Shown here piece by piece: positions 28,312 through 39,195 of a stretch of 64,000 nt of DNA; positions within the stretch are counted from its first letter, which is position 1, and each line of letters starts with the position of its first letter. The notes under the pieces are model-generated. The model was given only the letters and a program-made list of their open reading frames with translations. It did no database searches and was not told the DNA's origin. The stretch comes from Clostridia bacterium (lineage in GTDB: Bacteria > Bacillota > Clostridia > Oscillospirales > SIG627): the NCBI GenBank assembly GCA_017517325.1, contig JAFWZW010000018.1, positions 8,061 to 72,060 of the forward strand, written 5' to 3'. The position numbers and the translations under genes were made by a program.

Positions 28312-29487
28312 TCAAAGCGAGATCAGGTGGCACAGTCGGAGGGGAGACGTACAGTCAAGCCGCTGCATCAGGTGGGCGGCGAGGCGGTCAAATTCGGTAT
28401 GATCGATCAGGCGGAACGCAGCAGCCATTCCGTCGATCAAACCGCTTTTATTGGGGTGCTCTGCCGTGATTCCCAAGCCGAGAAAACGCAGGATCGCATA
28501 AACCGCACAAAGGGCAACGTACTCGCTATGCATACTTTTGGGGCGATCCTGAAAGGGAAACACCGAGAAAAACATATGGTTGACCAGCATATGCTCGTAA
28601 AAAGTCTCCCAATTCGGTGCCAAAGCTTCAAAGCGAGACCTTGCGGTGTGATAGCGTCGGAGCGCACCGTCACCACTTCCGAAATATGCAAGTGCCGCTT
28701 CTCCGTACCCGCGGATGCTTTCACTTCGCTCATCCAGAATGGCGATCATCTGTTCCACCATATCAAGCCCGAACGCCAAGTGCTCCTCACGTATTTCATC
28801 GATATGAGCAAGGGTGAGCCAATCGCGATGGCGACGGGCCAGGATGTGATCCAACATTGCCTTATCCTTTCTTTCAAAGGCAACGTCCATATCGTCAAGC
28901 ACCTGACCAAGGCACATGATTCTTTGGGACAAGGGCATCCCCCGATCCTGAATGATCGAGATCAGATAGAGCCTTACGTTCTGCTCAACGCCCAAGGTCT
29001 CAAAAAAGGATCGTCTTTCGGGCAAGGGCGGCATTTCCACCGTCAGCTCACGGCGAACAAATGCAATGGGCTCTTCTTTTTCCAACATCAGCTCCAAAAC
29101 CGCCTCACAGCTGTTGGCGCAGGAGCATTCGTACAACCCGTCCTCCCAGCGGATTCCCCTTGGATACAGACGGCAAACGTCTGGCAGGATCTCTTCTCCC
29201 AGCTCGGCGTGGATGGCGCAACGCCCGTCCTGCATTCGCAGGGGGCAGTTGCCGTCGTAGCGGGGCTCAAACCGTGCATATTTCTCCTCGGTGGGACGGT
29301 CGACTACACGAACGCCGCAATCCAGGCGGCGCCGAAGATCCTCGTTACAATCAAGCCCCAACAGGCGAAAGTAATTTTTCATAGAGATGGAGATGGGCCA
29401 ACCGACGCAGCAAGCCGAGCGGCACGCACCCATTTTACAGGAAAAATTCATGTAATAATCCGGCATCAAAAAAGTATGTGTTTCCAC
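28312..29487 (-). CDS. FliB-like (flagellin lysine-N-methylase family) Cys-rich protein
   Basis: MPDYYMNFSCKMGACRSACCVGWPISI is the N-terminal CxxxxCxxxCC signature of the FliB/YkgJ-type family as I remember it. Likely start is GTG 29485-29487, 6 nt after GGAGG; ATG 29466 is the alternative. Confidence 0.55.
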   Translation of the reverse strand: METHTFLMPDYYMNFSCKMGACRSACCVGWPISISMKNYFRLLGLDCNEDLRRRLDCGVRVVDRPTEEKYARFEPRYDGNCPLRMQDGRCAIHAELGEEILPDVCRLYPRGIRWEDGLYECSCANSCEAVLELMLEKEEPIAFVRRELTVEMPPLPERRSFFETLGVEQNVRLYLISIIQDRGMPLSQRIMCLGQVLDDMDVAFERKDKAMLDHILARRHRDWLTLAHIDEIREEHLAFGLDMVEQMIAILDERSESIRGYGEAALAYFGSGDGALRRYHTARSRFEALAPNWETFYEHMLVNHMFFSVFPFQDRPKSMHSEYVALCAVYAILRFLGLGITAEHPNKSGLIDGMAAAFRLIDHTEFDRLAAHLMQRLDCTSPLRLCHLISL

Positions 29488-29629
29488 AAAAAACCTCCAA
29501 AAATAAAAAGACAAAGGTCAACCTCATATTGTCAGTTCACCTTTTTCGCAAAAATTATACTACTTTTTTTCTGCATTTTTCAAGATTTTTTTGAAATTTT
29601 TCCTGAAAAATTTTTAAGCTTTTTTGCCA

Positions 29630-29665
29630 GAAAAAACAGAGGTATTGCAATGCAATACCTCTGTT
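29630..29665 (-). terminator. terminator of the nine-gene operon
   Basis: Palindrome cagaggtattgca / tgcaatacctctg. It is followed by a T-run on the minus strand, immediately after the PBP stop. Confidence 0.75.
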
Positions 29666-29669
29666 TTGA

Positions 29670-30995
29670 TTATTTTGCTCTTGGAACGAGCTTTGCCAAT
29701 TCGTTGGCGATGGTGAAGGTGCTGACGCCGCTGCCGCGGGAATCCTCCACGATGATATAGAAGGCAGTCTTTGCTTCTTCGATCACCCCCACCAAAAGGC
29801 TGTTTTCCGCGGTCTCACCAACCTCGGAGGTGCCCGTTTTGGCATAGGTAACGGTTTCATCCAAACCAAGATTGTAATAGGTATAATCGTATTCGCGGGT
29901 ACCGGAATACCAATTCTTTTTCACCGTGGAAGCGGTGGAAGAGGAAAGGAGCTTTTCGGCATCCCCTTCTGCCTCGTAGGTGACCTTATTCTTGTTGGGG
30001 TTGGTGACGGATTCGACAAGATAGGGTCTGGCAACCTTTCCTCCGTTTGCCACGGCGCCGGCGATCATTGCCATTGAAACGGGGCTGACCTGACTTTGCC
30101 CCTGACCGATCAGAGCCCAAACGTCGTCAAAACGCTTGGTATTGGCAAAAACGGTGGAGGAGTTGGGGCGGGTCAAGCCATCCATTTCGTTTTTTTCGTG
30201 TTCGGTTTCATTCACCTCAAAGCCAAGCTCTTCCAGCGTTTCAATGGCTTTTTCCACGTCAAACTGGGTAATGAGATAAGCAAAGAAACCGTTGCAGCTT
30301 TTTCCCAGAGCTTCATCAAAGACCAGCTTTCCGTGAGACCCGGGGCAATTGATCTTGGAGCCATCCGGAAGCTGAAAAGAGCCGTTGCAGGTGTAGGACA
30401 GATCCTTCAATTTGATTTTTTGATCCGCCGCTACGATAGTAGCAACCAGCTTCATGGTAGAGCCGGGAGTATAGAGGGAATCCACACAGCGGTTGATAAA
30501 GGCCGCGTTTTCGTAATCAGGGGCGTAATGAGGAAGGGTGATCATCGTATAGATCTCGCCGGTTTCGTAGTTATAGGCAAAGCAACAGCCCTTCCGATCC
30601 CCAAACTGGGAGATCAAATGCAGCTGATCCTCCTGAGAGAGAAGGGTTGTTTTCATTTGGCGCGGCTCCCCTTCCACGGTGCGATAGCCGGTAAGAGAAT
30701 TGACGGAGCCGGGAACCAGCTTGGCGGCGTGGCGATACAAGACCGTATTGTGCATTAAATTGCCGTGGCCGATGGTGTTGCCATAGGCCTTGAAATCGCT
30801 TACCTGCCCGTTGTAGATGATCTGACCCGTTCGGTCGGTAATGACGCCGTGGATATCAGCAAAGCGGAATACGTCGTCATAGGTCAAATCATCCGTAGCA
30901 CCGCCGATGCGAAAAAGCGCGATGACCATAGAGATGGCCAAAACCCAGGAGAGGATGCTGAATACGACACCCATCCTCTTTTCTTTTCTTCTCAC
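29670..30995 (-). CDS. class-B penicillin-binding transpeptidase (small PbpA-like bPBP)
   Basis: N-terminal TM helix. Motifs STMK (SxxK), SCN (SxN) and KTGTS (KTG). GTG start overlaps the SEDS stop (GTGA). Confidence 0.85.
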   Translation of the reverse strand: MRRKEKRMGVVFSILSWVLAISMVIALFRIGGATDDLTYDDVFRFADIHGVITDRTGQIIYNGQVSDFKAYGNTIGHGNLMHNTVLYRHAAKLVPGSVNSLTGYRTVEGEPRQMKTTLLSQEDQLHLISQFGDRKGCCFAYNYETGEIYTMITLPHYAPDYENAAFINRCVDSLYTPGSTMKLVATIVAADQKIKLKDLSYTCNGSFQLPDGSKINCPGSHGKLVFDEALGKSCNGFFAYLITQFDVEKAIETLEELGFEVNETEHEKNEMDGLTRPNSSTVFANTKRFDDVWALIGQGQSQVSPVSMAMIAGAVANGGKVARPYLVESVTNPNKNKVTYEAEGDAEKLLSSSTASTVKKNWYSGTREYDYTYYNLGLDETVTYAKTGTSEVGETAENSLLVGVIEEAKTAFYIIVEDSRGSGVSTFTIANELAKLVPRAK

Positions 30996-32335
30996 TTTTT
31001 CTCCACCTCCTTAAACTTCACGGAAGGATTTAGGGAAGCAAAAACCATTCCCATCAGAATACCGAAGGTCAAAAGCGAGGTGCCGCCCTTGGAAAGGAAC
31101 GGAGCAACGATGCCCGTAAAGGGAAGCACGTCCAGAGAACCGAGAAAGTTTAAAAGCACGTGGGCGCAAAGCACCACGGAAACCTGCGTCGTCACAAAGT
31201 AGCACCAAGGGAAAATGGCGTAATTCTTACGGGGAATCAGAACCAAAATGCAATAAGAAAGCATCACCGAAAGGAGCATCCCGACCCCAAAGACAGAATA
31301 AATGCCCGCTATGACCATATCGTTTTCGATGGCGTAAATATTAATAATATGGGAGGAATTTTCAATACCGAGCCCACCAAGCCCGCCAAAAATACAAGCC
31401 TTGAGCATTTGCGCCTGCTGGCCGTTCTCCTCCATCGCTTTTCCTACGTTTTCAACACGTTCGTGGGCGTAGGGAACGAAGGTAACGGCGGCAAAGAAGA
31501 CCATTACCGTGATCAGAAGCAGGATCACGAAAAGTTTTTCATTATCAAGGAGAAGCACCGTCATTCCCAAAACCAAAGCAAAGATAATGGCTGCTGAGCC
31601 AAGATCGCGCAGGAGGAACAGGGCTGCAAAGGAAATGGCACCCATCACAAAAGTCAAAGTAACGCGCCACTTTTTGCCGTAGGAAAAGGCGCACATGGCA
31701 ATAAGAAACACCTTTAGTAGTTCTCCGGGCTGAAAGGAAAAAGAGCCGATGCGGATCCAAAGGCGGGCCCCGTTGACCGTTGAGCCGAAGATGAGGTTGA
31801 CGAGGATCAGAAGTGCAATGCAGACTGCCAAGGCAATGAACACGCCGTCCTTCACGTCTTTTACGTTGCGCATCACAAAATAGACGGCAATCATCGCCGC
31901 CATTGCCAATCCGAGGAACAAAACGTCGGAAAGAGAGATGGCCACCACAGCACGGAAGGACATACCGATGGCAAGCAAAATCGAGAGTGCCACCACGACC
32001 GCTGAAAATTTAGCGCGGGTCTTCTGCTGATACACAAGGGCAAGGATCAAAAAAAGGAGGATCATTCCCATTGATACCATATACAACACAGCGCGGTTTT
32101 TCAGCATCGAAATGCGACCCGTGTATTCTTCGATCTTCGTTTCAATGCTTTTGCTTTCATCCGCCGAAGCAGAGGAAAGCTTTTCTTCCAGAGCGGCAAC
32201 CCGCTCTTCACAATCCGCAATACGGATCTCGGTAACGGGGGCAAGCTCCTCAATGGTAAATGCAGTCAGACCCATCGCAAAAAGTATTGCAAGGATCATC
32301 AAGATAAAGCCGCGACCTCCGGTTGTTTTAAGCAT
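30992..32335 (-). CDS. SEDS-family peptidoglycan polymerase (FtsW/RodA/SpoVE) with an N-terminal coiled-coil insert
   Basis: SEDS blocks: GARLWIRIGSFSFQPGELLKV, LRDLGSA, FGGLGGLGIENS, ENDMVIAGIYSVFG and PFTGIVAPFLSKGGTS. A ~50-aa charged helix (EERVAALEEKLSS...) sits between TM1 and TM2. Confidence 0.85.
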   Translation of the reverse strand: MLKTTGGRGFILMILAILFAMGLTAFTIEELAPVTEIRIADCEERVAALEEKLSSASADESKSIETKIEEYTGRISMLKNRAVLYMVSMGMILLFLILALVYQQKTRAKFSAVVVALSILLAIGMSFRAVVAISLSDVLFLGLAMAAMIAVYFVMRNVKDVKDGVFIALAVCIALLILVNLIFGSTVNGARLWIRIGSFSFQPGELLKVFLIAMCAFSYGKKWRVTLTFVMGAISFAALFLLRDLGSAAIIFALVLGMTVLLLDNEKLFVILLLITVMVFFAAVTFVPYAHERVENVGKAMEENGQQAQMLKACIFGGLGGLGIENSSHIINIYAIENDMVIAGIYSVFGVGMLLSVMLSYCILVLIPRKNYAIFPWCYFVTTQVSVVLCAHVLLNFLGSLDVLPFTGIVAPFLSKGGTSLLTFGILMGMVFASLNPSVKFKEVEKK

Positions 32336-32870
32336 AATTCACCTCAACGTACTCCAAATGCGTATTTCCAATGAGCAGATGATCCCCCACTTCCAGGCGG
32401 ATATCCTGATCGTACTCCCGATAGGAAGAGGAATAGCCGGGAATGCGGAACAATTCCGGGATTTCTTCCGACTCCAGAGCGCCTCCGTCCTTCAAGACGG
32501 TAATATCCGTTGCATCAGCGTTGCAGACCCATATTTTTTTACAGGTGCGGTGAACGCAAAATTCACCGTAGTCGTTGTAGTAAAAGGTAGCGGCGTAATG
32601 AGAGAGGGTCTTATCCTCCACGGGGCCGGGAATATCCACCCTAAGGGGAGAAATGCGGGGCTTTCTACCGAAGGACAGACGGGCGGAAACCACGGGGTAG
32701 CGATTGATAATTTCACGCCCATCCTCCCCTACCTTACCCGTGTGCACCAGGATCGCGTGATTGCCGAGTTTTTTATGGTAGCGCCTTCTGCGGTTCGTAC
32801 ATTCGATATCCAAAAGATGAAAGGAAAAAGCAACACACAAAAGACCCACGAGAATAATGAGAAAATACAA
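32328..32870 (-). CDS. membrane-anchored FHA-domain protein (FhaB/FipA-like)
   Basis: N-terminal TM helix. FHA-like pattern: SFGRKP...DI...KTLSHYAATFYYNDYGEFCV...LEVGDHLLIGNTHLEY. TTG start 7 nt after AGGAGG. Confidence 0.65.
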   Translation of the reverse strand: MYFLIILVGLLCVAFSFHLLDIECTNRRRRYHKKLGNHAILVHTGKVGEDGREIINRYPVVSARLSFGRKPRISPLRVDIPGPVEDKTLSHYAATFYYNDYGEFCVHRTCKKIWVCNADATDITVLKDGGALESEEIPELFRIPGYSSSYREYDQDIRLEVGDHLLIGNTHLEYVEVNYA

Positions 32871-32882
32871 GGCTTTTCCTCC

Positions 32883-34427
32883 TTATTTTTCAGAGAGTTT
32901 ATCCAGTATACTGAGCAAAAGGAAGCCCAAAGGCACCGTTGCCACGATGATGACGGCAATGAGCAGTGCAAACAAGATCGCGGCAATTTTTCCTGAAAGG
33001 CGGGCGATAAACCCGATCCCCAGCCAATAGGCCACGAGCCCTAAATTTAAAAGCAAAAGCAGGATCTGTACCGCAAAGGTCAACATTAGGAAAAGCCTGA
33101 AGCCCTTCGTCAACTTTACCTTGGGCGTTTTTGTTTTTTCGTTGAAAGAGGCATCAGCCTTATCAGAAGTAGGCGCCGCCGTTTCGGAGAGCGCGGGATC
33201 GGGCGCCTGTTTCGCTTTCTTTTCAAAAACAGGAAGCTTTTTCTTTTTATCCCTTTTTTCCTTCTTTTCTTTTTTGTTCCGAGTATCTTTTTCCTGCTGT
33301 ACTTCTTCACTCTTGCGGGTATGAGTAACCAGAACGTCCTCTTGTTCTTTTTCTTTGGGACTCTCCTCCTTCTTCGGAACTTCCCTCTCTCGGAACAATT
33401 CGGAAAGTTTTTCCATCACGCAAGGGAGATGCGGAAAATCTTCCCGCCGACGGTATACCTTTTCCAAATGCTCCACGGAAAAAATCCTTCGGCGGATACA
33501 ATCTAGCACGATCTCCTCCGGCAGGACGGAAAACAGCTTCGTCGCCGAAAACAGATCGTTATAATTCTCCGTGTTCACCAGATCCCAAAAAAGCGCCGCA
33601 TCATCGTTATTATAGAGCAGGTTCAGAAGTTTCTCTTTCTTTTGGTCGGGGATCAAGGCATAACGCTCCGCCGCTTCAGGAACGGCTACGCCGCCGCTGA
33701 AAGCATCACCCGAAAGGATCATACGATCCACCATCGGTGCACCGTAGAAGTCGTCCTTTCGATTCATGGGTCTTAAAATATCGTCAAGCATCAAAACCAG
33801 CACCGCATCCTTGGTTTCCGCCGCAGAAGACGCGCCTGCGTGGAAGCTGACAAGGCGACGCATTTTGGGAGGCAAGCAGTCGTAAAGCCGACAGAGATGG
33901 TTTAAAATATCCTCCTCACAATTGCAACCCACGTAAGTCTGTACCTTTATTCTCTCATTTTCAGTGCGAAGGGTACTGTAGTAAGCTGCCGAAAAAAGGG
34001 CACTCTGCGCATTGAAGGTTGGCATAAAAGCCCCTTTCAAAGCCACTTTTTTCAACGGGATCTCGTAGCCACGCTCTATGACGATAGAATCTGATTCAGC
34101 AATCAAATCTACCATACGCCCGCGGAAGCCAGCCGCAAAGAAATCGTCTGCCTCGAAGGGATCAAAAAGCCAGTTGACGGTAGCAGCATTTCCCCGTGCA
34201 TCACCGTTTCCGCCATAACCCTTGTAGATCACGGAAAAAAGGAAACGGTCACCAAGAGGAGCGAAACGAAGGCAACGATAGTCCCTCTCCCGATCCAACG
34301 GTTCTTGCACGATTCTGCCGTTGGCATAAAGATTTTCGATCTTGGCGGAATATTCCTTTGGAAAATCGGAAGATCCGTCGTACAGCTGGTATCCGCTGCT
34401 GCCACCGGCATAGATGATATATTTCAT
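32883..34427 (-). CDS. tail-anchored protein of unknown function (514 aa)
   Basis: Globular N-terminal ~330 aa (MKYIIYAGGSSGYQLYDGSSDF...). A ~110-aa Lys/Glu-rich linker follows. Two C-terminal TM helices. AAGGAG RBS. Confidence 0.6.
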   Translation of the reverse strand: MKYIIYAGGSSGYQLYDGSSDFPKEYSAKIENLYANGRIVQEPLDRERDYRCLRFAPLGDRFLFSVIYKGYGGNGDARGNAATVNWLFDPFEADDFFAAGFRGRMVDLIAESDSIVIERGYEIPLKKVALKGAFMPTFNAQSALFSAAYYSTLRTENERIKVQTYVGCNCEEDILNHLCRLYDCLPPKMRRLVSFHAGASSAAETKDAVLVLMLDDILRPMNRKDDFYGAPMVDRMILSGDAFSGGVAVPEAAERYALIPDQKKEKLLNLLYNNDDAALFWDLVNTENYNDLFSATKLFSVLPEEIVLDCIRRRIFSVEHLEKVYRRREDFPHLPCVMEKLSELFREREVPKKEESPKEKEQEDVLVTHTRKSEEVQQEKDTRNKKEKKEKRDKKKKLPVFEKKAKQAPDPALSETAAPTSDKADASFNEKTKTPKVKLTKGFRLFLMLTFAVQILLLLLNLGLVAYWLGIGFIARLSGKIAAILFALLIAVIIVATVPLGFLLLSILDKLSEK

Positions 34428-34436
34428 ATAGACTCC

Positions 34437-35639
34437 TTATCGGGTTGTTTTTAAATTGGGCTCATCAATGGGGAAAATATCAAGCTCGTTGAGGATCCAG
34501 ATCAAAGGATCCATTACGTTGATGGATTCTTTAAAATTCAGCATCTGTCCTTCTTCTTCAGGCTGGGTGGATTTTACGAAAAAGCCTGCGGACTGGGGAT
34601 TTTCCTGATAGATCAAAGGAGCAATGGCAGAGTAACGCCCTGACAAGGCTGTCTGCAATTTGATCCTGCGAAGCAATTTATCTTTGGCATATTGCTCTTT
34701 GGAGGTCTTGCGGAAGGAATCCTTGCTAAACAAGGGAACCTGATACTCCGGCATATTGGACAATTCCTGCTGAGGCGGATTTGCAAAAAGACGGTCTGCC
34801 TGATTCAAAACGTAGGCCACGGGGCGTCCCGTCAGCAAACCGTATTCTTTTGCACGGTTGAAGGCATCCACAAATCGCGGATCATTTACATTGGAAGAAC
34901 CGGGCGCATCCATCACCACAATGGCATCCAACCCACTATAGCCTTCAGTACCGCTCAACAGCGCATACCCGGAAGAATCCTCAAACGCGCTCTCCTTGTC
35001 TTCCTCAAAAATTTCACCGGCAAAATCCAGTACCACCACCGCAGCGATCGGAATCCCCCCCTTACGAGAGGGCTTATTGATGGTGATGATCTTGGTTTTT
35101 CCCTTATCGTTGATCAAAGTGGCGGCAATTCGTGGGGCTGAAGAATCCTCCACCGTTTCGGAGCTGAGGTAATAAGGAAAACGATTGACGGCATTCTGAT
35201 TCTCGGCACAGCCAAGGGCGTGGATCCAGCAGGATTTTCCCACCTGCCGAACACCCGTTACACCGATAACGTAGGTGGGGAGGTCGCCCGTTCCCTTGAG
35301 GATCTCAGTCAGCCCGCTCTCGGCGCAAAAGGGGCAACATCTTTTAAAGGGAACCGTTTCCTTTTTGCCACCGTTAATGGCCAGATCCACCTTAATAGTG
35401 TGCTGAAAATTATCCTGACCGCCGTGCGAGTCCTTTTTGGCAGCACGGTTCAGTGCGGAATATTTGCACTCCACGTTCTTGGAATCGGAGGAATATTCGG
35501 GAACAAAATGCTCCACGTAAAGCCCTCCCAAAGGCTTGCGCTTCAGCTGCACCCAAACGTTATACGTGCTGTGATAATAATACGCATCGGAAGTAACTCT
35601 TCCGCACTTGTGACAAAGTACGATTCCGGCGTTTAGCAT
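34437..35639 (-). CDS. zinc-ribbon plus P-loop GTPase-like protein
   Basis: CxxC pairs (CHKCG; CCPFCAE). Walker A GVTGVRQVGKS (aa 126-136), G3/Walker B VVVLDFAGE, and the NKxD-like LNQAD. The start overlaps the upstream gene by 7 bp. Confidence 0.7.
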   Translation of the reverse strand: MLNAGIVLCHKCGRVTSDAYYYHSTYNVWVQLKRKPLGGLYVEHFVPEYSSDSKNVECKYSALNRAAKKDSHGGQDNFQHTIKVDLAINGGKKETVPFKRCCPFCAESGLTEILKGTGDLPTYVIGVTGVRQVGKSCWIHALGCAENQNAVNRFPYYLSSETVEDSSAPRIAATLINDKGKTKIITINKPSRKGGIPIAAVVVLDFAGEIFEEDKESAFEDSSGYALLSGTEGYSGLDAIVVMDAPGSSNVNDPRFVDAFNRAKEYGLLTGRPVAYVLNQADRLFANPPQQELSNMPEYQVPLFSKDSFRKTSKEQYAKDKLLRRIKLQTALSGRYSAIAPLIYQENPQSAGFFVKSTQPEEEGQMLNFKESINVMDPLIWILNELDIFPIDEPNLKTTR

Positions 35640-36553
35640 AATCTATCATCTCCAATCCATGTAATAACAAAGAGAAGGATCCTCTCTCCCTCTGCCTTGG
35701 AACCACCAAAAATACCCACGGGAACGTTCATTTCAAGAGGAATCTGCTGTTCTGCAAAACGGTTTACAAGTTCCTCAGAGGTAGAGGGAACGTACGCGTA
35801 AGCACCAACGGCATCCTTCGCAAAACAGAGACGCTTGCTCGTCCCGCCTGCCGTAATGATAATTCCCTTCTTTTTTTTCAATTCCTTAAAGGTGTAAAGC
35901 ACATCATCAGGCTCCATGCCATCGTGAGCGGCGATCCACTGAATACGGATGTAGGTTTCATCCTTCTTATTAAAGCAAAATTCGCTTATCTCTTTCAATT
36001 CGCGCAAATTTTCCTTGGCGCGCCGCCTTTGACGAAGTGACAAAAGTTTGGCATAACCCCAAACAGGCACTGCTTTTTTTGCTGTCTTAAGACGACGAAC
36101 TTTTTTCTTTTTCGGGGGCTTTTGAACAGGCTCTTTTTTTCGATCGAGACCAGCAGCCTTTATGGCTCTTCTCTCCATCAGTTTTTCTTCTAAGAGCTCT
36201 AATTTTTTTCGAAGGAAGGTAAGCACAGGTACGATAAGGACCGATACCACCCAAAAAAACGGAACCAATATCACCGCACATTCAAAGAGGCCGGAGATCA
36301 AAGGAAACAAGAACGAGAGCTTGTCAAGAATCAGCCTTACGATGGTCAGATCCCCCACCCAGCAAAGGGCAATATGGATAGTGTTGAACGCGGTCCCTAC
36401 AAAAGGAATATCCGCCACCAGTTCGGGAGATGCGCAAAACAAAATCAAAAACAGAACGATCGAATATTTCCAGAACGATCTTCTAATGGCGCTGAAAAGC
36501 TTCCACAGCGCCGTAAAAAACGAAACGGGTTTTGAAAGTGATTTGATAATCAT
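35633..36553 (-). CDS. 4-TM membrane protein with a basic linker and cytoplasmic C-terminal domain, unknown function
   Basis: Hydrophobic N-terminal ~115 aa, a KKEPVQKPPKKKKVRRLK linker and a ~130-aa C-terminal globular region. Confidence 0.55.
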   Translation of the reverse strand: MIIKSLSKPVSFFTALWKLFSAIRRSFWKYSIVLFLILFCASPELVADIPFVGTAFNTIHIALCWVGDLTIVRLILDKLSFLFPLISGLFECAVILVPFFWVVSVLIVPVLTFLRKKLELLEEKLMERRAIKAAGLDRKKEPVQKPPKKKKVRRLKTAKKAVPVWGYAKLLSLRQRRRAKENLRELKEISEFCFNKKDETYIRIQWIAAHDGMEPDDVLYTFKELKKKKGIIITAGGTSKRLCFAKDAVGAYAYVPSTSEELVNRFAEQQIPLEMNVPVGIFGGSKAEGERILLFVITWIGDDRLC

Positions 36554-36583: not shown

Positions 36584-38368
36584 TTAAAAGAATATTTCGA
36601 AATCGGAATCGGCACCGTCACCCGTTTCTTCCGCAGCTTCAGGCATTTCCAAAGCGGAATCCACCTGAGTAGGAACGGTAGCCGCTGCAGAATCGGGGAA
36701 ATAAACCGGAATAAACCAATTTTCAGGCTTTTCATCCGACTTAAAGGTATGAACGTAAACGGTTACAGGGCCTTTACCCACCTTTTGGCAGATCTCAGCG
36801 GTAGAGGGTCTTTCAACAGAATGAGTCCCGTCGGGGCAATCACAAATCACCTCCAACGCGCAAAGCCTGTTCTCCAAGGGAAGATGGGGAGTAAACACGT
36901 GAATGTTATAAGAAAACGCCTTTTCGTAAGCTTCGTGCTCTAAAAGGCCGATCATCTCATACAAGCAACCTTTCAATTGGCTGAGTTCATAGGCTCTTGC
37001 GGGGTGGGAAGGAAAGAAATCTATTTGAGAAAGAACGTTCTCCATAGTGGTAACTTCTGCGTTATCCACCTTCAGGTAGTAGTCGCTTGGGCAAATGGGA
37101 TAAAAACGGCTGGAGGATCCGTAAAGGAACAACCAGGCAAGATTTCCAGAATTTTTCATCACCCTTTCCGCTTCAGCCTTATAGATTTTGCGGCAAATTT
37201 CAAATTCGGTGGTATCAAAAAGGAAAAAGTCAAATTTTTCAACGGCACAGCCGTTTTTCTCTTCTTCCGGCAAGCCCTTTAATATGGATCTCAGTTCTTT
37301 TTCGAAGTTCGCGAGGGTGATGCGGTTGGCAGGGTCGAACATCGTTGCCTTCCGAAACAGAGAACGGATCTCGGGACACTTCGTTTCAACCTCCGACCAG
37401 TTGGCATTGATCTCATGTCCTTGAATCACCTGCTCCAGCCAGTTTGGGGAAAGATGAACAGGGTCATCCTCATACTGCTTATGAATCTCCCGCAAACGAC
37501 CCGCAAGTTCCGAGGCATTGGTAATGCCCACGTCCAGAACGTCAAAAAACATAGAAAGCGGATTCTTCGTTTCCTTATAAGACCAGATACCAAAGATCTC
37601 CACCAGCATCAGCCCCAAAGCAAACACATCGATCTTGGAGGTGCGCGTCATTCCACGTACCACATCCTCAGGGGCTGTGTTGTTACGCGAAAACGCCGTC
37701 TCCACCGTTGCATCCGGATCCTCTTCTTCATCCGAATATTTTAGTTTGATAGATGGAAAATCAATAAGGCGCATTGTTTTTTTGCCCTTTTCATCTTCTT
37801 CCACCATTACGTTTTTGAATTTCAGATCCCGATGGGCGATCACGTTGGTATCGGCAATGGGTCCCTGGGCCATCAATTCCTTCAGACCGTTGATGATCTG
37901 AAGCATACAGTCGATTTTTTCTGCCGCCGTAGAAAAATTAAAATCCGAAATCGATTTATAAAAAGGCTCGATCACCATACAATTAAAATCCTTATACTCC
38001 GGCGTTTCAAACACATCCAGCGCCCCGGAACGGATCTCTTCTTCCATTCTTTTTGCATCGTCGTTTTGAGCCAGCACCTGACGGAGATTTTTCCCTTTGA
38101 AATTGAAAAAATCCCAAAAATGGCGGCTTTGGGGAAGACGCTCTTCCTCAAAGGGAAATTGGATCCTCACCTTTTTCAGGCAATACTTACGGTCAAGTTC
38201 GCAGCCGACGGGTGCCGATTTGTTAGAAAATTGCCCGTTTCCACAAAAAGTACCTGCGTAGATCTGCTTACACCGCTCATCGGGGGTAAGTCTTTTTTCT
38301 ACGGTAAACGTATATTTTTGATTGTTTTGTTGAAAGCAGATGGTTTGCTTTACCTCAATTGTACCCAA
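36584..38368 (-). CDS. Hanks-type serine/threonine protein kinase with an unassigned C-terminal alpha/beta domain
   Basis: Catalytic loop AHRDLKFKNVMV, DFP in place of DFG (LIDFPSIK), APE (TAPEDV) and the subdomain IX-like DVFALGLML. TTG start 7 nt after GGAGG. The C-terminal ~210 aa are not recognisable and end in an acidic tail. Confidence 0.8.
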   Translation of the reverse strand: MGTIEVKQTICFQQNNQKYTFTVEKRLTPDERCKQIYAGTFCGNGQFSNKSAPVGCELDRKYCLKKVRIQFPFEEERLPQSRHFWDFFNFKGKNLRQVLAQNDDAKRMEEEIRSGALDVFETPEYKDFNCMVIEPFYKSISDFNFSTAAEKIDCMLQIINGLKELMAQGPIADTNVIAHRDLKFKNVMVEEDEKGKKTMRLIDFPSIKLKYSDEEEDPDATVETAFSRNNTAPEDVVRGMTRTSKIDVFALGLMLVEIFGIWSYKETKNPLSMFFDVLDVGITNASELAGRLREIHKQYEDDPVHLSPNWLEQVIQGHEINANWSEVETKCPEIRSLFRKATMFDPANRITLANFEKELRSILKGLPEEEKNGCAVEKFDFFLFDTTEFEICRKIYKAEAERVMKNSGNLAWLFLYGSSSRFYPICPSDYYLKVDNAEVTTMENVLSQIDFFPSHPARAYELSQLKGCLYEMIGLLEHEAYEKAFSYNIHVFTPHLPLENRLCALEVICDCPDGTHSVERPSTAEICQKVGKGPVTVYVHTFKSDEKPENWFIPVYFPDSAAATVPTQVDSALEMPEAAEETGDGADSDFEIFF

Positions 38369-38394: not shown

Positions 38395-39195
38395 TTAAAC
38401 GCCTTTTTTAATGCGAACCGCGATCATGGACGTATCGTCCTTGCCACCCGCGTTCACAACGCTCTCGTACACCTTGACGCAGAGCTGCTTCATATCTTCA
38501 CGGTTTGAGAAAACGATTTCATCAAGCACCCCTTCATCCAACGTAGAAAGGGCGCCGTCACTCCCCAAAAGCAAAACGGAATCCTGAAAAAGGGGGTGCC
38601 TTTGTACAAAAACGTCAGCAGGATCCAGAAGAGAACGAGCCCCACCTACCACGCGGTGCAAAACGTTTTTCCGTTTGTAATGCTTTGCTTCCGCCTCGTT
38701 CAGCTTGCCGTTTCTTGCAAGGATCGCACCTTCGCTGTGGCTGGTGTATATATCCTTGATCGAGCCGCACATCAGATCCGTAAGGCGAACAGGGGAATCC
38801 CCCACGTTGGCAACGTACACCGCATCCTCAAACACGATGGCCATACTCACAGAGCAGGCGCAATTTTCGTTAGGATACTCAAACAGCAATTGATCGGCAG
38901 AAAGAATGGCGTTTTGCATCAAAGAAAAAAAATACTTGGTACGCCCTTCTTCGTCGGTAGCGGCAAGAGAATCCGCATCCACCATAAGGGGAGCTACGGC
39001 GCTCCTGATCTTTTTTTGTGCCAGAGCGGAAGAAAGGGCGGGGTTTGCGGTACTGACTCCGTCGATCACGCAGAAAACACCGAACCGGGTCAAGGACGCC
39101 GGAGCCGTATTAAAAAGCAGGTAAAACGTCTTGTCGCCGTTTTCCTCATGGGCAAGTTTACGGGAAAAATGAAAAACGTCTTCAATATAAAGCAT
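38395..39195 (-). CDS. PP2C-family serine/threonine phosphatase
   Basis: VFCVIDGVSTA, YVANVGDSPVRL, LLLGSDGALSTL and GGKDDTSMIAVRI blocks. Confidence 0.8.
   Translation of the reverse strand: MLYIEDVFHFSRKLAHEENGDKTFYLLFNTAPASLTRFGVFCVIDGVSTANPALSSALAQKKIRSAVAPLMVDADSLAATDEEGRTKYFFSLMQNAILSADQLLFEYPNENCACSVSMAIVFEDAVYVANVGDSPVRLTDLMCGSIKDIYTSHSEGAILARNGKLNEAEAKHYKRKNVLHRVVGGARSLLDPADVFVQRHPLFQDSVLLLGSDGALSTLDEGVLDEIVFSNREDMKQLCVKVYESVVNAGGKDDTSMIAVRIKKGV

What the first reader, a model, noticed from the sequence alone, without database searches (positions are those of the whole stretch)
32883..36553. Zinc-ribbon P-loop GTPase flanked by two membrane proteins with Lys-rich linkers
The 400-aa protein has two CxxC pairs ahead of a GTPase-like core: GVTGVRQVGKS, VVLDFAGE, and NQAD in place of NKxD. 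Its start overlaps the stop of a 4-TM protein. The next gene, 9 bp after its stop, encodes a tail-anchored 514-aa protein. Both partners share one design: a globular cytoplasmic domain, a long Lys/Glu-rich linker, and TM helices. The N-terminus of the 514-aa protein (IIYAGGSSGYQLYDGSSDF) loosely recalls the N-terminal domains of the GTPase-associated (GAP1-type) proteins proposed for NTP-dependent conflict systems. I cannot verify this from memory alone. A GTPase embedded between kinase/phosphatase genes and a peptidoglycan synthase is unusual.
Basis: inference. Interest (0 to 1): 0.7.

Follow-up and report, generated by a model that had tools for sequence, protein, structure and literature searches.

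The report
GTPase switch operon with peptidoglycan synthase
The zinc-ribbon GTPase and its two membrane partners are real and sit at the centre of a strictly conserved nine-gene operon of uncultured gut Clostridia, which joins a little-known "double-GTPase" switch to a kinase/phosphatase/FHA signalling set and a dedicated cell-wall synthase pair, a combination not described before.

Summary
The 400-aa protein has two Cys knuckles (CHKC 9-12, CPFC 102-105). It also has G1 (GKS, K135), G3/Walker B (DFAGE 205-209) and G4 (NQAD 279-282). Its start overlaps the stop of a 4-TM protein by 7 nt. The 514-aa C-terminally anchored protein starts 9 nt after its stop.

K135, D205, G208, E209 and D282 are invariant in 107 of 107 family representatives. 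A confident AF2 model (pLDDT 82) matches only TRAFAC GTPases. The nearest outgroup is Pfam DO-GTPase2/1, the "double GTPases" of Kaur et al. 2020.

The 514-aa protein occupies the GAP1 position. It gives only sub-threshold, collinear hits: GAP1-M in the window protein and GAP1-N2 in an orthologue. GAP1 membership is therefore likely but unproven.

The trio is the core of a nine-gene operon (window 40393 to 29633, minus strand). Its order is kinase-like protein, PP2C, Ser/Thr kinase, TM protein, GTPase, GAP1-like protein, membrane FHA, SEDS, PbpA-type PBP. This order is kept in all 19 other loci examined, with PP2C missing in one subclade.

My best reading is a membrane-tethered GTPase plus phospho-switch that controls a dedicated peptidoglycan synthase. 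A conflict system is the main rival. It is a new variant of a known, computationally defined kind.

The parts
40366..40393 (-). Promoter-like site for the operon (TTGACT, 16 nt, TG-TATAAT; 11 of 12 matches)
   Evidence: It lies 52 nt upstream of the first gene's ATG (40314). This is a consensus match only.
39202..40314 (-). Gene 1, 370 aa: conserved soluble protein with kinase C-lobe-like motifs (YRPL, LLPLP, GMPRE, RRPSLE) and a charged tail. Possible pseudokinase, unproven.
   Evidence: Present first in every complete locus. No Pfam hit. The only two PDB profile hits below E=1 are Ser/Thr kinase C-lobes, at E 0.5-0.7. hhalign against the operon kinase gives E 0.1, which is not significant.
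38395..39195 (-). Gene 2, 266 aa: PP2C-type Ser/Thr phosphatase
   Evidence: NCBIfam Stp1_PP2C 1.7e-20, plus weak Pfam PP2C/SpoIIE hits. Present in window, L008, L011, L014/L017, L018, L027 and L028. Absent in one subclade.
36584..38368 (-). Gene 3, 594 aa: Ser/Thr protein kinase with an intact catalytic loop (HRDLKxxN, DFP, TAPE) and a roughly 190-aa C-terminal domain that looks vWA-like (FLVDTT... IHIFAP)
   Evidence: Pfam Pkinase 2.5e-13. H179, R180, D181, K183, N186, D203 and A232-E234 are invariant in 10 orthologues. For the C-terminal domain, VWA_3 scores E 0.018 and VWA_2 scores E 0.2, each in one orthologue. This is suggestive only.
35633..36553 (-). Gene 4, 306 aa: membrane protein with four hydrophobic segments (29-116), a basic linker, and a roughly 125-aa cytoplasmic C-terminal domain ending in ITWIG. 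No known family.
   Evidence: An orthologue sits directly upstream of the GTPase in all loci, although sequence conservation is low. Its stop overlaps the GTPase start by 7 nt.
34437..35639 (-). Gene 5, 400 aa: DO-type (double-GTPase 2-like) TRAFAC GTPase with an N-terminal beta-rich zinc-ribbon domain (C9, C12, C102, C105). It carries G1 K135, G3/Walker B D205-G208-E209, G4 N279-D282 and a conserved C-terminal motif NVxDPLxWxLN.
32883..34427 (-). Gene 6, 514 aa: GAP1-like protein with a roughly 345-aa cytoplasmic globular region, a charged low-complexity linker (346-440) and a C-terminal TM hairpin (441-512)
   Evidence: Always immediately downstream of the GTPase. GAP1-M scores E 0.073 at residues 163-225. 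GAP1-N2 scores E 0.04 at residues 11-114 of orthologue L014. No PDB relative was found. The AF2 model is unusable, with pLDDT 42.
32328..32870 (-). Gene 7, 180 aa: N-terminal TM anchor plus a derived cytoplasmic FHA domain (G68-R69 and S90 kept, His lost)
   Evidence: Divergent orthologues are canonical FHA domains: Pfam 9.5e-10 and 5.9e-11, both above the cut-off. The family is collinear with them. The pThr-binding Ser co-varies with presence of the PP2C gene in 17 of 17 loci.
30992..32335 (-). Gene 8, 447 aa: SEDS-family peptidoglycan glycosyltransferase (FtsW/RodA-like) with an extra N-terminal TM and a roughly 50-aa insert
   Evidence: Pfam FTSW_RODA_SPOVE 8.2e-32. PDB RodA and FtsW hits. 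N-terminal insert seen.
29670..30995 (-). Gene 9, 441 aa: short class B penicillin-binding protein (PbpA type) with STMK, SCN and KTG motifs intact
   Evidence: Pfam Transpeptidase 2.6e-31. The best PDB relative is the 457-aa chain 4mnr_A, and M. tuberculosis PbpA 3un7/3lo7 is also hit. The catalytic motifs were read directly in the translation.
29633..29667 (.). Perfect 16-bp palindromic hairpin followed by a T-rich tail, 3 nt after the last gene. Probable bidirectional terminator that closes the operon.

Best explanation
The three genes are the core of a nine-gene operon.

Parts. A single-copy DO-type GTPase has a zinc-ribbon domain, a TRAFAC G domain and a Walker-B glutamate. It is translationally coupled to an upstream polytopic membrane protein. 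A GAP1-like protein follows it and is held in the membrane by a C-terminal hairpin. All three globular parts face the cytoplasm, and flexible linkers hold them at the membrane.

Context. They are co-transcribed with a Ser/Thr phospho-signalling set: an active kinase with a vWA-like C-terminal domain, a PP2C phosphatase, a membrane-anchored FHA reader and a kinase-like accessory protein. They are also co-transcribed with a dedicated SEDS glycosyltransferase and a PbpA-type class B transpeptidase.

Proposed mechanism. The GTPase is a nucleotide-dependent switch, probably dimerising or cycling with the GAP1-like partner. Together with phosphorylation read by the FHA protein, it controls where or when this extra SEDS-bPBP pair makes peptidoglycan.

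Shown: gene order and its conservation, GTPase fold and motifs, DO-GTPase relationship, FHA/PP2C/kinase/SEDS/PBP identities, and membrane topology by hydropathy and the positive-inside rule.

Inferred: physical interaction of the parts, GTP hydrolysis, and peptidoglycan synthesis as the regulated output.
For: Operon structure:
- One strong promoter-like site lies upstream and one strong hairpin downstream. The nine genes are separated by -8 to +30 nt.

Synteny:
- The same order (kinase-like, [PP2C], kinase, TM, GTPase, GAP1-like, FHA, SEDS, PBP) occurs in all 19 other distinct loci, wherever the contig extends far enough.
- This holds down to 24-32% GTPase identity.
- No variable gene is inserted between the conserved genes in any locus.

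GTPase:
- 18 of 23 members hit MMR_HSR1 and 9 of 23 hit DO-GTPase2.
- 29 of the 40 nearest outgroup proteins hit DO-GTPase2, and 14 of 40 hit DO-GTPase1.
- K135, D205, G208, E209 and D282 are each 107 of 107. The zinc-ribbon Cys are 103-107 of 107.
- The AF2 model has pLDDT 82 and pTM 0.84. Its listed PDB matches are nearly all TRAFAC GTPases: Rho/Rac/Rab, atlastin, HflX and EF-Tu (the list also holds YcjX).

GAP1-like partner:
- It has the right position, the right size for N+M+C (about 345 aa), and C-terminal TMs as described for GAP1-N2 systems (PMC7159879 section 29).
- It gives collinear sub-threshold hits to GAP1-N2 and GAP1-M.

Phospho-signalling is integral to the system:
- The FHA pThr-binding Ser is kept in 8 of 8 loci with PP2C and lost in 9 of 9 loci without it.

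Wall synthase:
- The PBP catalytic motifs are intact, and the PBP is of the short PbpA type.
- The FHA, PP2C, SEDS, PbpA and kinase set parallels the actinobacterial cell-wall/division locus (PMC6554272).
Against: - There is no experimental datum for any DO-GTPase or GAP1 in the held literature.
- The family was originally interpreted as part of conflict systems.
- GAP1 homology is below Pfam thresholds. It was seen in only 2 of 15 proteins scanned and was absent from the family consensus.
- The structure of the GAP1-like protein could not be modelled.
- The G4 Lys is poorly conserved: K in 43 of 107, H in 35, F in 12, and Q in the window protein. Nucleotide specificity is therefore not certain.
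- The operon often lies beside defence-like genes.
- I could not check whether these genomes also carry the canonical RodA/PBP2 and FtsW/FtsI pairs. 'Dedicated extra synthase' is therefore an assumption.
Confidence: 0.55

Rival explanations
1. It is a GAP1-N2-type GTPase-centric conflict (immunity) system as proposed by Kaur et al. 2020. The GTPase/GAP1 pair senses an invader. The kinase and phosphatase set a threshold. The SEDS-PBP pair is the effector, for example by walling off or reinforcing an infected cell, or it is a guarded target.
For: - The GTPase belongs to the DO-GTPase assemblage.
- The paper describes a GAP1-N2 theme with an active kinase, PP2C and vWA, GAP1 with C-terminal TMs, and a role close to the membrane and cell wall.
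- Defence-like neighbours are common. A PDC-S37/Hhe-type helicase lies next to the operon in the window and at least 7 other loci. A TIR protein lies upstream in L013. Fic/MazE genes lie upstream in L001.
- The operon proteins evolve faster (22-46% identity) than the neighbouring helicase (56-63%).
Against: - The defining pattern of those systems is a constant core plus components that vary even between close relatives. That pattern is absent here. All nine genes are constant across 19 loci.
- No FNIII-repeat sensor or known effector domain is present.
- No PADLOC model hits the trio.
- The family appears confined to one group of gut Clostridia, with co-diverging components. This fits vertical inheritance.
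- The paper never mentions FtsW, RodA, penicillin or transpeptidase.
Confidence: 0.2
2. It is a stage-specific morphogenetic module, for example for sporulation cortex or septum synthesis or another differentiation step of these Oscillospirales-type Clostridia. The GTPase and kinase act as checkpoint signals for a specialised SEDS-bPBP pair. This is a special case of the best explanation, with a developmental trigger.
For: - The SEDS and PBP are far below the NCBIfam cut-offs for FtsW, RodA, SpoVE, MrdA and SpoVD. They are a distinct pair rather than a housekeeping one.
- The PDB hits include Stage V sporulation protein D (7rcz).
- Kaur et al. associate GAP1-N2 systems with organisms that have differentiated cell types.
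Against: Neither the operon nor the genes around it hit any sporulation model above its curated cut-off (the SEDS and PBP hit the spoVE and spoVD models only far below cut-off); the rest of the window was not annotated. A sigma-70-like promoter rather than a recognisable sporulation promoter precedes it, although this is only a consensus scan. No expression data are available.
Confidence: 0.15
3. The GTPase trio and the phospho-signalling and cell-wall genes are functionally unrelated neighbours that merely share a transcript.
For: No direct evidence supports this. It is the null hypothesis.
Against: The order is identical in 19 further loci down to 24-32% GTPase identity. The trio is inserted between the kinase and the FHA/SEDS/PBP genes, and there is translational coupling at both ends (overlaps of 7, 8 and 4 nt).
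Confidence: 0.03

Closest known systems
DO-GTPase / GAP1-N2 'GTPase-centric systems', kinase-PP2C-vWA theme (Kaur, Burroughs, Iyer, Aravind, eLife 2020; PMC7159879; Pfam DO-GTPase2 PF19993, GAP1-N2 PF20013, GAP1-M PF20014)
   Same: - TRAFAC GTPase with an invariant Walker-B Glu and an N-terminal zinc ribbon.
- A partner gene immediately downstream, with a polar extension and C-terminal TMs.
- Further TM components.
- An active kinase plus PP2C, with a probable vWA-like domain in the same neighbourhood.
- A predicted site of action at the membrane and cell wall.
   Different: - That theme was reported only from Actinobacteria, whereas this operon is in Clostridia.
- The vWA-like domain is fused to the kinase rather than standalone.
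- No FNIII-repeat protein and no variable effector are present.
- There is one GTPase, not two.
- FHA, SEDS and class B PBP genes are constant members, an association the paper does not mention.
- The GAP1 match is only sub-threshold.
Actinobacterial cell-wall/division locus fhaA-fhaB-pstP-rodA-pbpA-pknA-pknB (e.g. M. tuberculosis Rv0014c-Rv0020c; PMC6554272)
   Same: It also combines an FHA protein, a PP2C phosphatase, a SEDS protein, a short PbpA-type class B PBP and Ser/Thr kinase(s) in one conserved locus. The PBP here matches PDB PbpA-type chains.
   Different: - The actinobacterial locus has no GTPase, no GAP1-like protein and no 306-aa TM protein.
- The kinase here has no TM or PASTA domains and carries a different C-terminal domain.
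- The gene order differs.
- The FHA here is derived and anchored by an N-terminal TM helix.
Small Ras-like/TRAFAC GTPase switches with dedicated partners (e.g. MglA/MglB; Rho/Rac; atlastin-type dimerising G domains)
   Same: It shares the G-domain fold, with Foldseek probability 1.00 to Rho/Rac/Rab and atlastin. It also shares the logic of a nucleotide switch encoded next to a cognate regulator.
   Different: - Sequence identity is only 10-18%.
- The G3 motif is DxxGE rather than DxxGQ.
- An N-terminal roughly 110-aa zinc-ribbon domain and a C-terminal NVxDPLxW motif are specific to the DO family.
- There is no evidence that the partner is a GAP or GEF.

Membership tests
DO-GTPase (double-GTPase) family, type 2 | TRAFAC-class GTPase fold with Walker A GxxxxGK[ST] | tested here: met
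   The AF2 model (pLDDT 82) matches almost only TRAFAC GTPases, with 108 PDB hits at E<=1e-3. K135 is 107 of 107.
DO-GTPase (double-GTPase) family, type 2 | Conserved glutamate in the Walker B motif (DxxGE), as stated in PMC7159879 | tested here: met
   D205, G208 and E209 are each 107 of 107. The same D..GE is invariant in the 40 outgroup DO-GTPases.
DO-GTPase (double-GTPase) family, type 2 | Significant match to the Pfam DO-GTPase2 model | tested here: inconclusive
   The window protein itself gives no hit. 9 of 23 close family members hit it, with best E 9.4e-6. Among the nearest outgroup found with the family profile, 29 of 40 hit it, with best E 2.1e-15. This is membership by transitive profile evidence, at the edge of the model.
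DO-GTPase (double-GTPase) family, type 2 | N-terminal zinc ribbon(s) | tested here: met
   C9, C12, C102 and C105 are conserved in 103-107 of 107. The CPxC knuckle is also nearly invariant in the outgroup. There are two knuckles about 90 residues apart. Whether that makes one or two ribbons was not resolved.
DO-GTPase (double-GTPase) family, type 2 | Two paralogous GTPase genes per system (seen in 38% of systems, so not obligatory) | tested here: not met
   There is one GTPase gene per operon in all loci. The 306-aa TM protein shows no similarity to the GTPase (hhalign E 0.15).
GAP1 (GTPase-associated protein 1), N2 type | Encoded directly downstream of the DO-GTPase | tested here: met
   The gap is 9 nt in the window. 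The arrangement is the same in all loci.
GAP1 (GTPase-associated protein 1), N2 type | GAP1-N2, GAP1-M and GAP1-C domains detectable in that order | tested here: inconclusive
   - GAP1-M scores E 0.073 (13.7 bits, cut-off 24) at residues 163-225 of the window protein.
- GAP1-N2 scores E 0.04 (14.4 bits, cut-off 24) at residues 11-114 of orthologue L014, covering model positions 18-127 of 139.
- Treated as a targeted test (4 models x about 16 sequences), both remain unlikely by chance: per-model p of about 2-3e-6, or about 1-2e-4 after correction. That estimate is my inference.
- However, GAP1-C was never seen, 13 other orthologues gave nothing, and the family consensus gave nothing.
GAP1 (GTPase-associated protein 1), N2 type | [quoted passage not shown] | tested here: met
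   A charged linker spans 346-440 and two hydrophobic segments span 441-512. Both are conserved in orthologues.
GAP1-N2-type GTPase-centric conflict system (whole system) | Linked protein with rapidly evolving FNIII repeats | tested here: not met
   No FNIII or other repeat domain was found in any operon protein or its orthologues by Pfam.
GAP1-N2-type GTPase-centric conflict system (whole system) | Constant core coupled to effector components that vary between close relatives | tested here: not met
   The gene content is identical in 19 loci apart from loss of PP2C in one subclade.
GAP1-N2-type GTPase-centric conflict system (whole system) | Kinase + PP2C + vWA theme | tested here: inconclusive
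   The kinase and PP2C are clear. vWA is only hinted at for the kinase C-terminal domain, with VWA_3 at E 0.018 and VWA_2 at E 0.2, each in one orthologue, plus a DTT/DTS motif at the MIDAS position.
FHA domain (gene 7) | Pfam FHA match; GR, SxxH and N signature | tested here: inconclusive
   The window protein has no hit. Orthologues L014 and L018 hit FHA at 9.5e-10 and 5.9e-11, above the cut-off, and align collinearly. The window protein keeps G68-R69 and S90 but has lost the His. It is a homologue with a derived binding site.
Actinobacterial FHA-PstP-RodA-PbpA-PknB type locus | Co-located FHA, PP2C, SEDS, short class B PBP and Ser/Thr kinase | tested here: met
Actinobacterial FHA-PstP-RodA-PbpA-PknB type locus | Transmembrane PASTA-type kinase and membrane-anchored PstP | tested here: not met
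   The kinase and PP2C here have no convincing TM segment and no PASTA domain. NCBIfam PknB_PASTA_kin scores only E 0.0014, over the catalytic core.

The most novel reading that the evidence does not exclude
A Ras-superfamily-like GTPase, with its own GAP1-type partner and a second membrane tether, directly gates a SEDS-class B PBP peptidoglycan synthase together with Ser/Thr phosphorylation. This would be a previously unrecognised mode of bacterial cell-wall control. It would also mean that at least part of the computationally defined 'GAP1-N2 conflict systems' are envelope-morphogenesis regulators rather than immune systems.
Probability: 0.35. Interest if true: 0.75.

Novelty: new variant of a known kind. 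Interest (0 to 1): 0.6.

Why it matters
DO-GTPases and GAP1 proteins are known only from one comparative-genomics study. In the held literature they have no experimental function. This operon ties a member of that family, in a fixed stoichiometric gene set, to enzymes whose activity is well understood and easy to assay: SEDS polymerase, class B transpeptidase, Ser/Thr kinase, PP2C and FHA.

That gives a concrete, testable output for the GTPase switch. It also gives a way to decide between the 'immunity' and 'morphogenesis' readings of the whole family.

It further extends the FHA/PP2C/kinase/SEDS/PBP regulatory logic, best known from Actinobacteria, to gut Clostridia, with an added nucleotide switch. 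The carriers are uncultured gut and rumen Clostridia, which limits immediate experimental access.

Tried and rejected
**GAP1-like (514-aa) protein**
- A word-index search with the full protein was swamped by Lys-rich low-complexity candidates (2 hits). Repeating it with an 11-sequence profile of the globular part returned only 3 proteins.
- The AF2 model from that 3-sequence alignment had pLDDT 42 and was not used for fold search.
- Scanning family consensus sequences against Pfam gave no GAP1, vWA or kinase hit, and only E 0.18 for FHA. The trick is less sensitive than scanning divergent members.

**Attempts to obtain bona fide GAP1 sequences for a profile-profile test**
- The paper's supplement holds only a multicellularity table.
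- tblastn of outgroup DO-GTPases against plasmids gave nothing for P0129 and P0150.
- For P0144 it gave one Rhodococcus megaplasmid locus (L025). None of my family HMMs hit its neighbours.
- Alignments of outgroup or mid-range GTPases were too divergent for the search for related loci.

**Other operon proteins**
- Pseudokinase reading of gene 1: hhalign against the operon kinase gave E 0.1. I kept it only as a possibility.
- The idea that the 306-aa protein is a degenerate second GTPase was rejected (hhalign E 0.15).
- PDB profile searches for the 514-aa, 306-aa and kinase C-terminal domains found nothing meaningful.

**Defence-system check**
- PADLOC gave no hit for the trio. The kinase matched only generic kinase models.

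Full report
**1. What is in the sequence**

On the minus strand, nine ORFs run from 40314 to 29670 with spacings of -8 to +30 nt. A strong sigma-70-like site (TTGACT, 16 nt, TG-TATAAT) lies at 40393-40366. A perfect 16-bp hairpin with a T-rich tail lies at 29633-29667. I read this as one operon.

The finding's three genes are numbers 4 to 6.
- The GTPase is at 34437-35639 and has 400 aa. It carries CHKC (9-12), CPFC (102-105), GVTGVRQVGKS (126-136), VVLDFAGE (202-209) and NQAD (279-282).
- The upstream gene is at 35633-36553 and has 306 aa. It has four hydrophobic segments (29-116), a basic linker and a roughly 125-aa C-terminal domain. Its stop overlaps the GTPase ATG by 7 nt.
- The downstream gene is at 32883-34427 and has 514 aa. 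It starts 9 nt after the GTPase stop. It has a roughly 345-aa globular part, a 95-aa charged linker (28 K/R, 21 D/E) and two C-terminal hydrophobic segments.

The one exception is that 'tail-anchored' is better described as a C-terminal TM hairpin.

**2. The GTPase**

A word-index search found 23 clusters, all from Clostridia MAGs. An exhaustive profile search of 1.84 billion representatives found 164 proteins at E<=1e-3. Seventy-nine of these were at E<=1e-30, and almost all were 350-450 aa and matched end to end.

In 107 full-length representatives, K135, D205, G208, E209 and D282 are invariant. The four zinc-ribbon cysteines are present in 103-107.

G4 is [T/N/S]-[K/H/F/R/Q]-x-D. Only the Asp is fixed, and the window's NQAD is one of several variants.

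Pfam hits are as follows.
- 18 of 23 close members hit MMR_HSR1, and 9 of 23 hit DO-GTPase2 (best E 9.4e-6).
- Of the 40 most distant profile hits, 29 hit DO-GTPase2 (best E 2.1e-15) and 14 hit DO-GTPase1.
- Those distant hits share the DxxGE Walker B, the CPxC knuckle and the C-terminal NV..P..W motif with the window family.

An AF2 model built from the 23-sequence alignment is confident (pLDDT 82, pTM 0.84). It shows a beta-rich N-terminal domain followed by a G domain. Foldseek against the PDB returns almost only TRAFAC GTPases: Rho/Rac/Rab, atlastin, HflX, EF-Tu (plus YcjX). There are 108 hits at E<=1e-3.

The protein is therefore a zinc-ribbon member of the 'double GTPase' assemblage defined by Kaur et al. 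2020 (PMC7159879). It lies on the type-2 side, at the edge of the Pfam model.

**3. The partners**

Kaur et al. describe GAP1 as the protein typically encoded just downstream of a DO-GTPase. It is built of N, M and C domains. In N2-type systems it is often fused to C-terminal TMs or a highly polar extension, and further TM components are present.

The 514-aa protein fits by position, by size of its globular part and by architecture. The sequence evidence is weak but not random.
- The window protein hits GAP1-M at E 0.073, at residues 163-225. This is the most conserved block of the family.
- A divergent orthologue (L014) hits GAP1-N2 at E 0.04 over residues 11-114. This covers positions 18-127 of the 139-position model.
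- The two hits are collinear with the GAP1 domain order. They point to the N2 type, which is the type expected to pair with DO-GTPase2.

The structure could not be modelled. I could not obtain true GAP1 sequences for a profile-profile test. I rate GAP1 homology at about two in three.

The 306-aa protein has no detectable relative outside the operon family. It is not a degenerate GTPase. Its orthologues keep the same plan, TMs then a disordered linker then a C-terminal domain ending in ITW[IL]GG, at low identity.

**4. The rest of the operon**

- Gene 2 is a PP2C phosphatase (NCBIfam Stp1-type, 1.7e-20).
- Gene 3 is a Ser/Thr kinase with an invariant HRDLKxxN, DFP and TAPE. Its C-terminal domain has a motif pattern (FLVDTT ... 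IHIFAP) and two weak hits (VWA_3 0.018, VWA_2 0.2) that suggest a vWA-like fold.
- Gene 7 is an N-terminally anchored FHA protein. The window copy gives no Pfam hit. Orthologues in L014 and L018 are canonical FHA domains (9.5e-10 and 5.9e-11), and the whole family aligns collinearly with them.
- Gene 8 is a SEDS protein.
- Gene 9 is a short class B PBP with intact STMK, SCN and KTG motifs. Its best PDB relative is the short 457-aa chain 4mnr_A, and M. tuberculosis PbpA (3un7/3lo7) is also hit.
- Gene 1 is a conserved protein with kinase C-lobe-like motifs. The only support is two weak PDB hits to kinases and a non-significant hhalign result.

**5. Conservation**

I examined 19 further distinct loci. 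They came from species-representative genomes (Acutalibacteraceae, Oscillospiraceae and other Clostridia MAGs), from metagenome contigs and from contigs carrying listed homologues.

The order kinase-like, [PP2C], kinase, TM, GTPase, GAP1-like, FHA, SEDS, PBP is identical wherever the contig reaches. This includes loci whose GTPase is only 24-32% identical to the query used. Nothing variable is inserted.

PP2C is missing in one subclade. Those loci, 9 of 9, have replaced the FHA pThr-binding Ser by Lys or Ala. All 8 loci with PP2C keep it. This is probably a single evolutionary event. It still shows that the FHA, phosphatase and kinase genes function together, and that the window copy (R69, S90) probably still reads phosphothreonine.

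**6. Interpretation**

By hydropathy and the positive-inside rule, all soluble domains except the transpeptidase face the cytoplasm. Three of them (the 306-aa protein, the 514-aa protein and the FHA protein) are tethered to the membrane.

The simplest reading is a membrane-proximal regulatory complex with two inputs. One is a GTPase switch with its cognate partner(s). The other is a kinase/phosphatase/FHA module. They converge on a dedicated SEDS-bPBP synthase. This parallels the actinobacterial FHA-PstP-RodA-PbpA-PknB locus (PMC6554272), with an added nucleotide switch.

The alternative is a conflict system in the sense of Kaur et al.
- For it: the family assignment, and frequent defence-like neighbours. 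These are a PDC-S37/Hhe-type helicase in the window and at least 7 other loci, a TIR protein in L013, and Fic/MazE in L001.
- Against it: the defining constant-core-plus-variable-effector pattern and the FNIII sensor are absent. PADLOC does not recognise the trio.

I give 0.55 to the wall-synthesis regulator, 0.20 to the conflict reading, 0.15 to a development-specific version and 0.03 to chance juxtaposition.

**7. Novelty**

The GTPase and (probably) GAP1 families are known, but only computationally. Kaur et al. report a kinase-PP2C-vWA theme only in Actinobacteria. They never mention FtsW/RodA or penicillin-binding/transpeptidase proteins, nor an FHA protein in the GTPase-centric systems.

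A constant nine-gene Clostridial operon that couples such a GTPase to FHA, SEDS and bPBP is therefore a new variant of a known kind. It offers a tractable biochemical output for an uncharacterised switch family.

Noticed in passing
window 40555-46452 (+); also L003, L005, L006, L008, L011, L012, L026: A 1965-aa SF1 helicase (DUF4011, AAA_11/12, MTES_1575, DUF3320) lies divergently next to the operon. It matches the PADLOC candidate defence model PDC-S37 end to end (1164 bits) and Hhe (2.6e-170). The same helicase lies beside the operon in at least 7 other loci at 56-63% identity, so it is better conserved than the operon proteins. Whether the linkage is functional or just conserved genome order is open.
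   Followed up: partly
window 32328-32870 and 38395-39195; loci L001-L028: Presence of the PP2C gene and retention of the FHA pThr-binding serine (S90) co-vary perfectly. All 8 loci with PP2C keep the Ser, and all 9 loci without it have K or A. Three of the PP2C-less loci also change GR to GK. The kinase catalytic residues stay intact in both groups.
   Followed up: yes
L007:11237-13084: The GAP1-like orthologue in L007 is 615 aa. It carries three tandem copies of the C-terminal helical subdomain (motif ...GEAxFxxALExDCFSxxELxxIYDEQExL...).
   Followed up: no
L012:11269-11476: In L012 the GAP1-like ORF starts about 60 residues late, after a roughly 200-nt gap behind the GTPase. This may be a frameshift, an assembly error or a pseudogene.
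   Followed up: no
window 30992-32335 (residues 1-105 of the SEDS protein): The SEDS protein of the window's clade has an extra N-terminal TM helix. This is followed by a conserved, acidic, coiled-coil-like insert of about 50 aa (VTxxRIxDCxxR...YxxRxxML). The insert is absent from the divergent loci L014, L015 and L018. It might be a docking or phosphorylation site.
   Followed up: partly
window 28312-29514 (-): A FliB-type flagellin lysine-N-methylase (NCBIfam 4.5e-50) lies directly downstream of the operon, behind its own promoter-like site (29583-29554). It does not appear linked to the operon in other loci.
   Followed up: partly
GAP1-like orthologues in alignment A2: Two orthologues gave Pfam DENND11 hits (best E 5.5e-5) and three gave Sec62 hits (2.6e-4). 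I could not localise them. They may come from the Lys/Glu-rich linker plus TM region, but a longin/DENN-like N-terminal fold is not excluded.
   Followed up: no
GTPase family, position 280 of the window protein: The second G4 position is Lys in only 43 of 107 representatives. It is His in 35, Phe in 12, Arg in 6 and Gln in 3, the window among them. The Asp is invariant. This is an unusual degree of freedom for an NKxD motif.
   Followed up: partly
L025 (Rhodococcus opacus plasmid pRho-G13, 552736-577695): An outgroup DO-GTPase (P0144) matches a Rhodococcus megaplasmid locus. The locus has two adjacent ORFs of 451 and 385 aa (only the 385-aa one matched P0144) behind two ORFs of 860 and 925 aa. 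The record is unannotated, and none of my operon-family HMMs hit it.
   Followed up: partly
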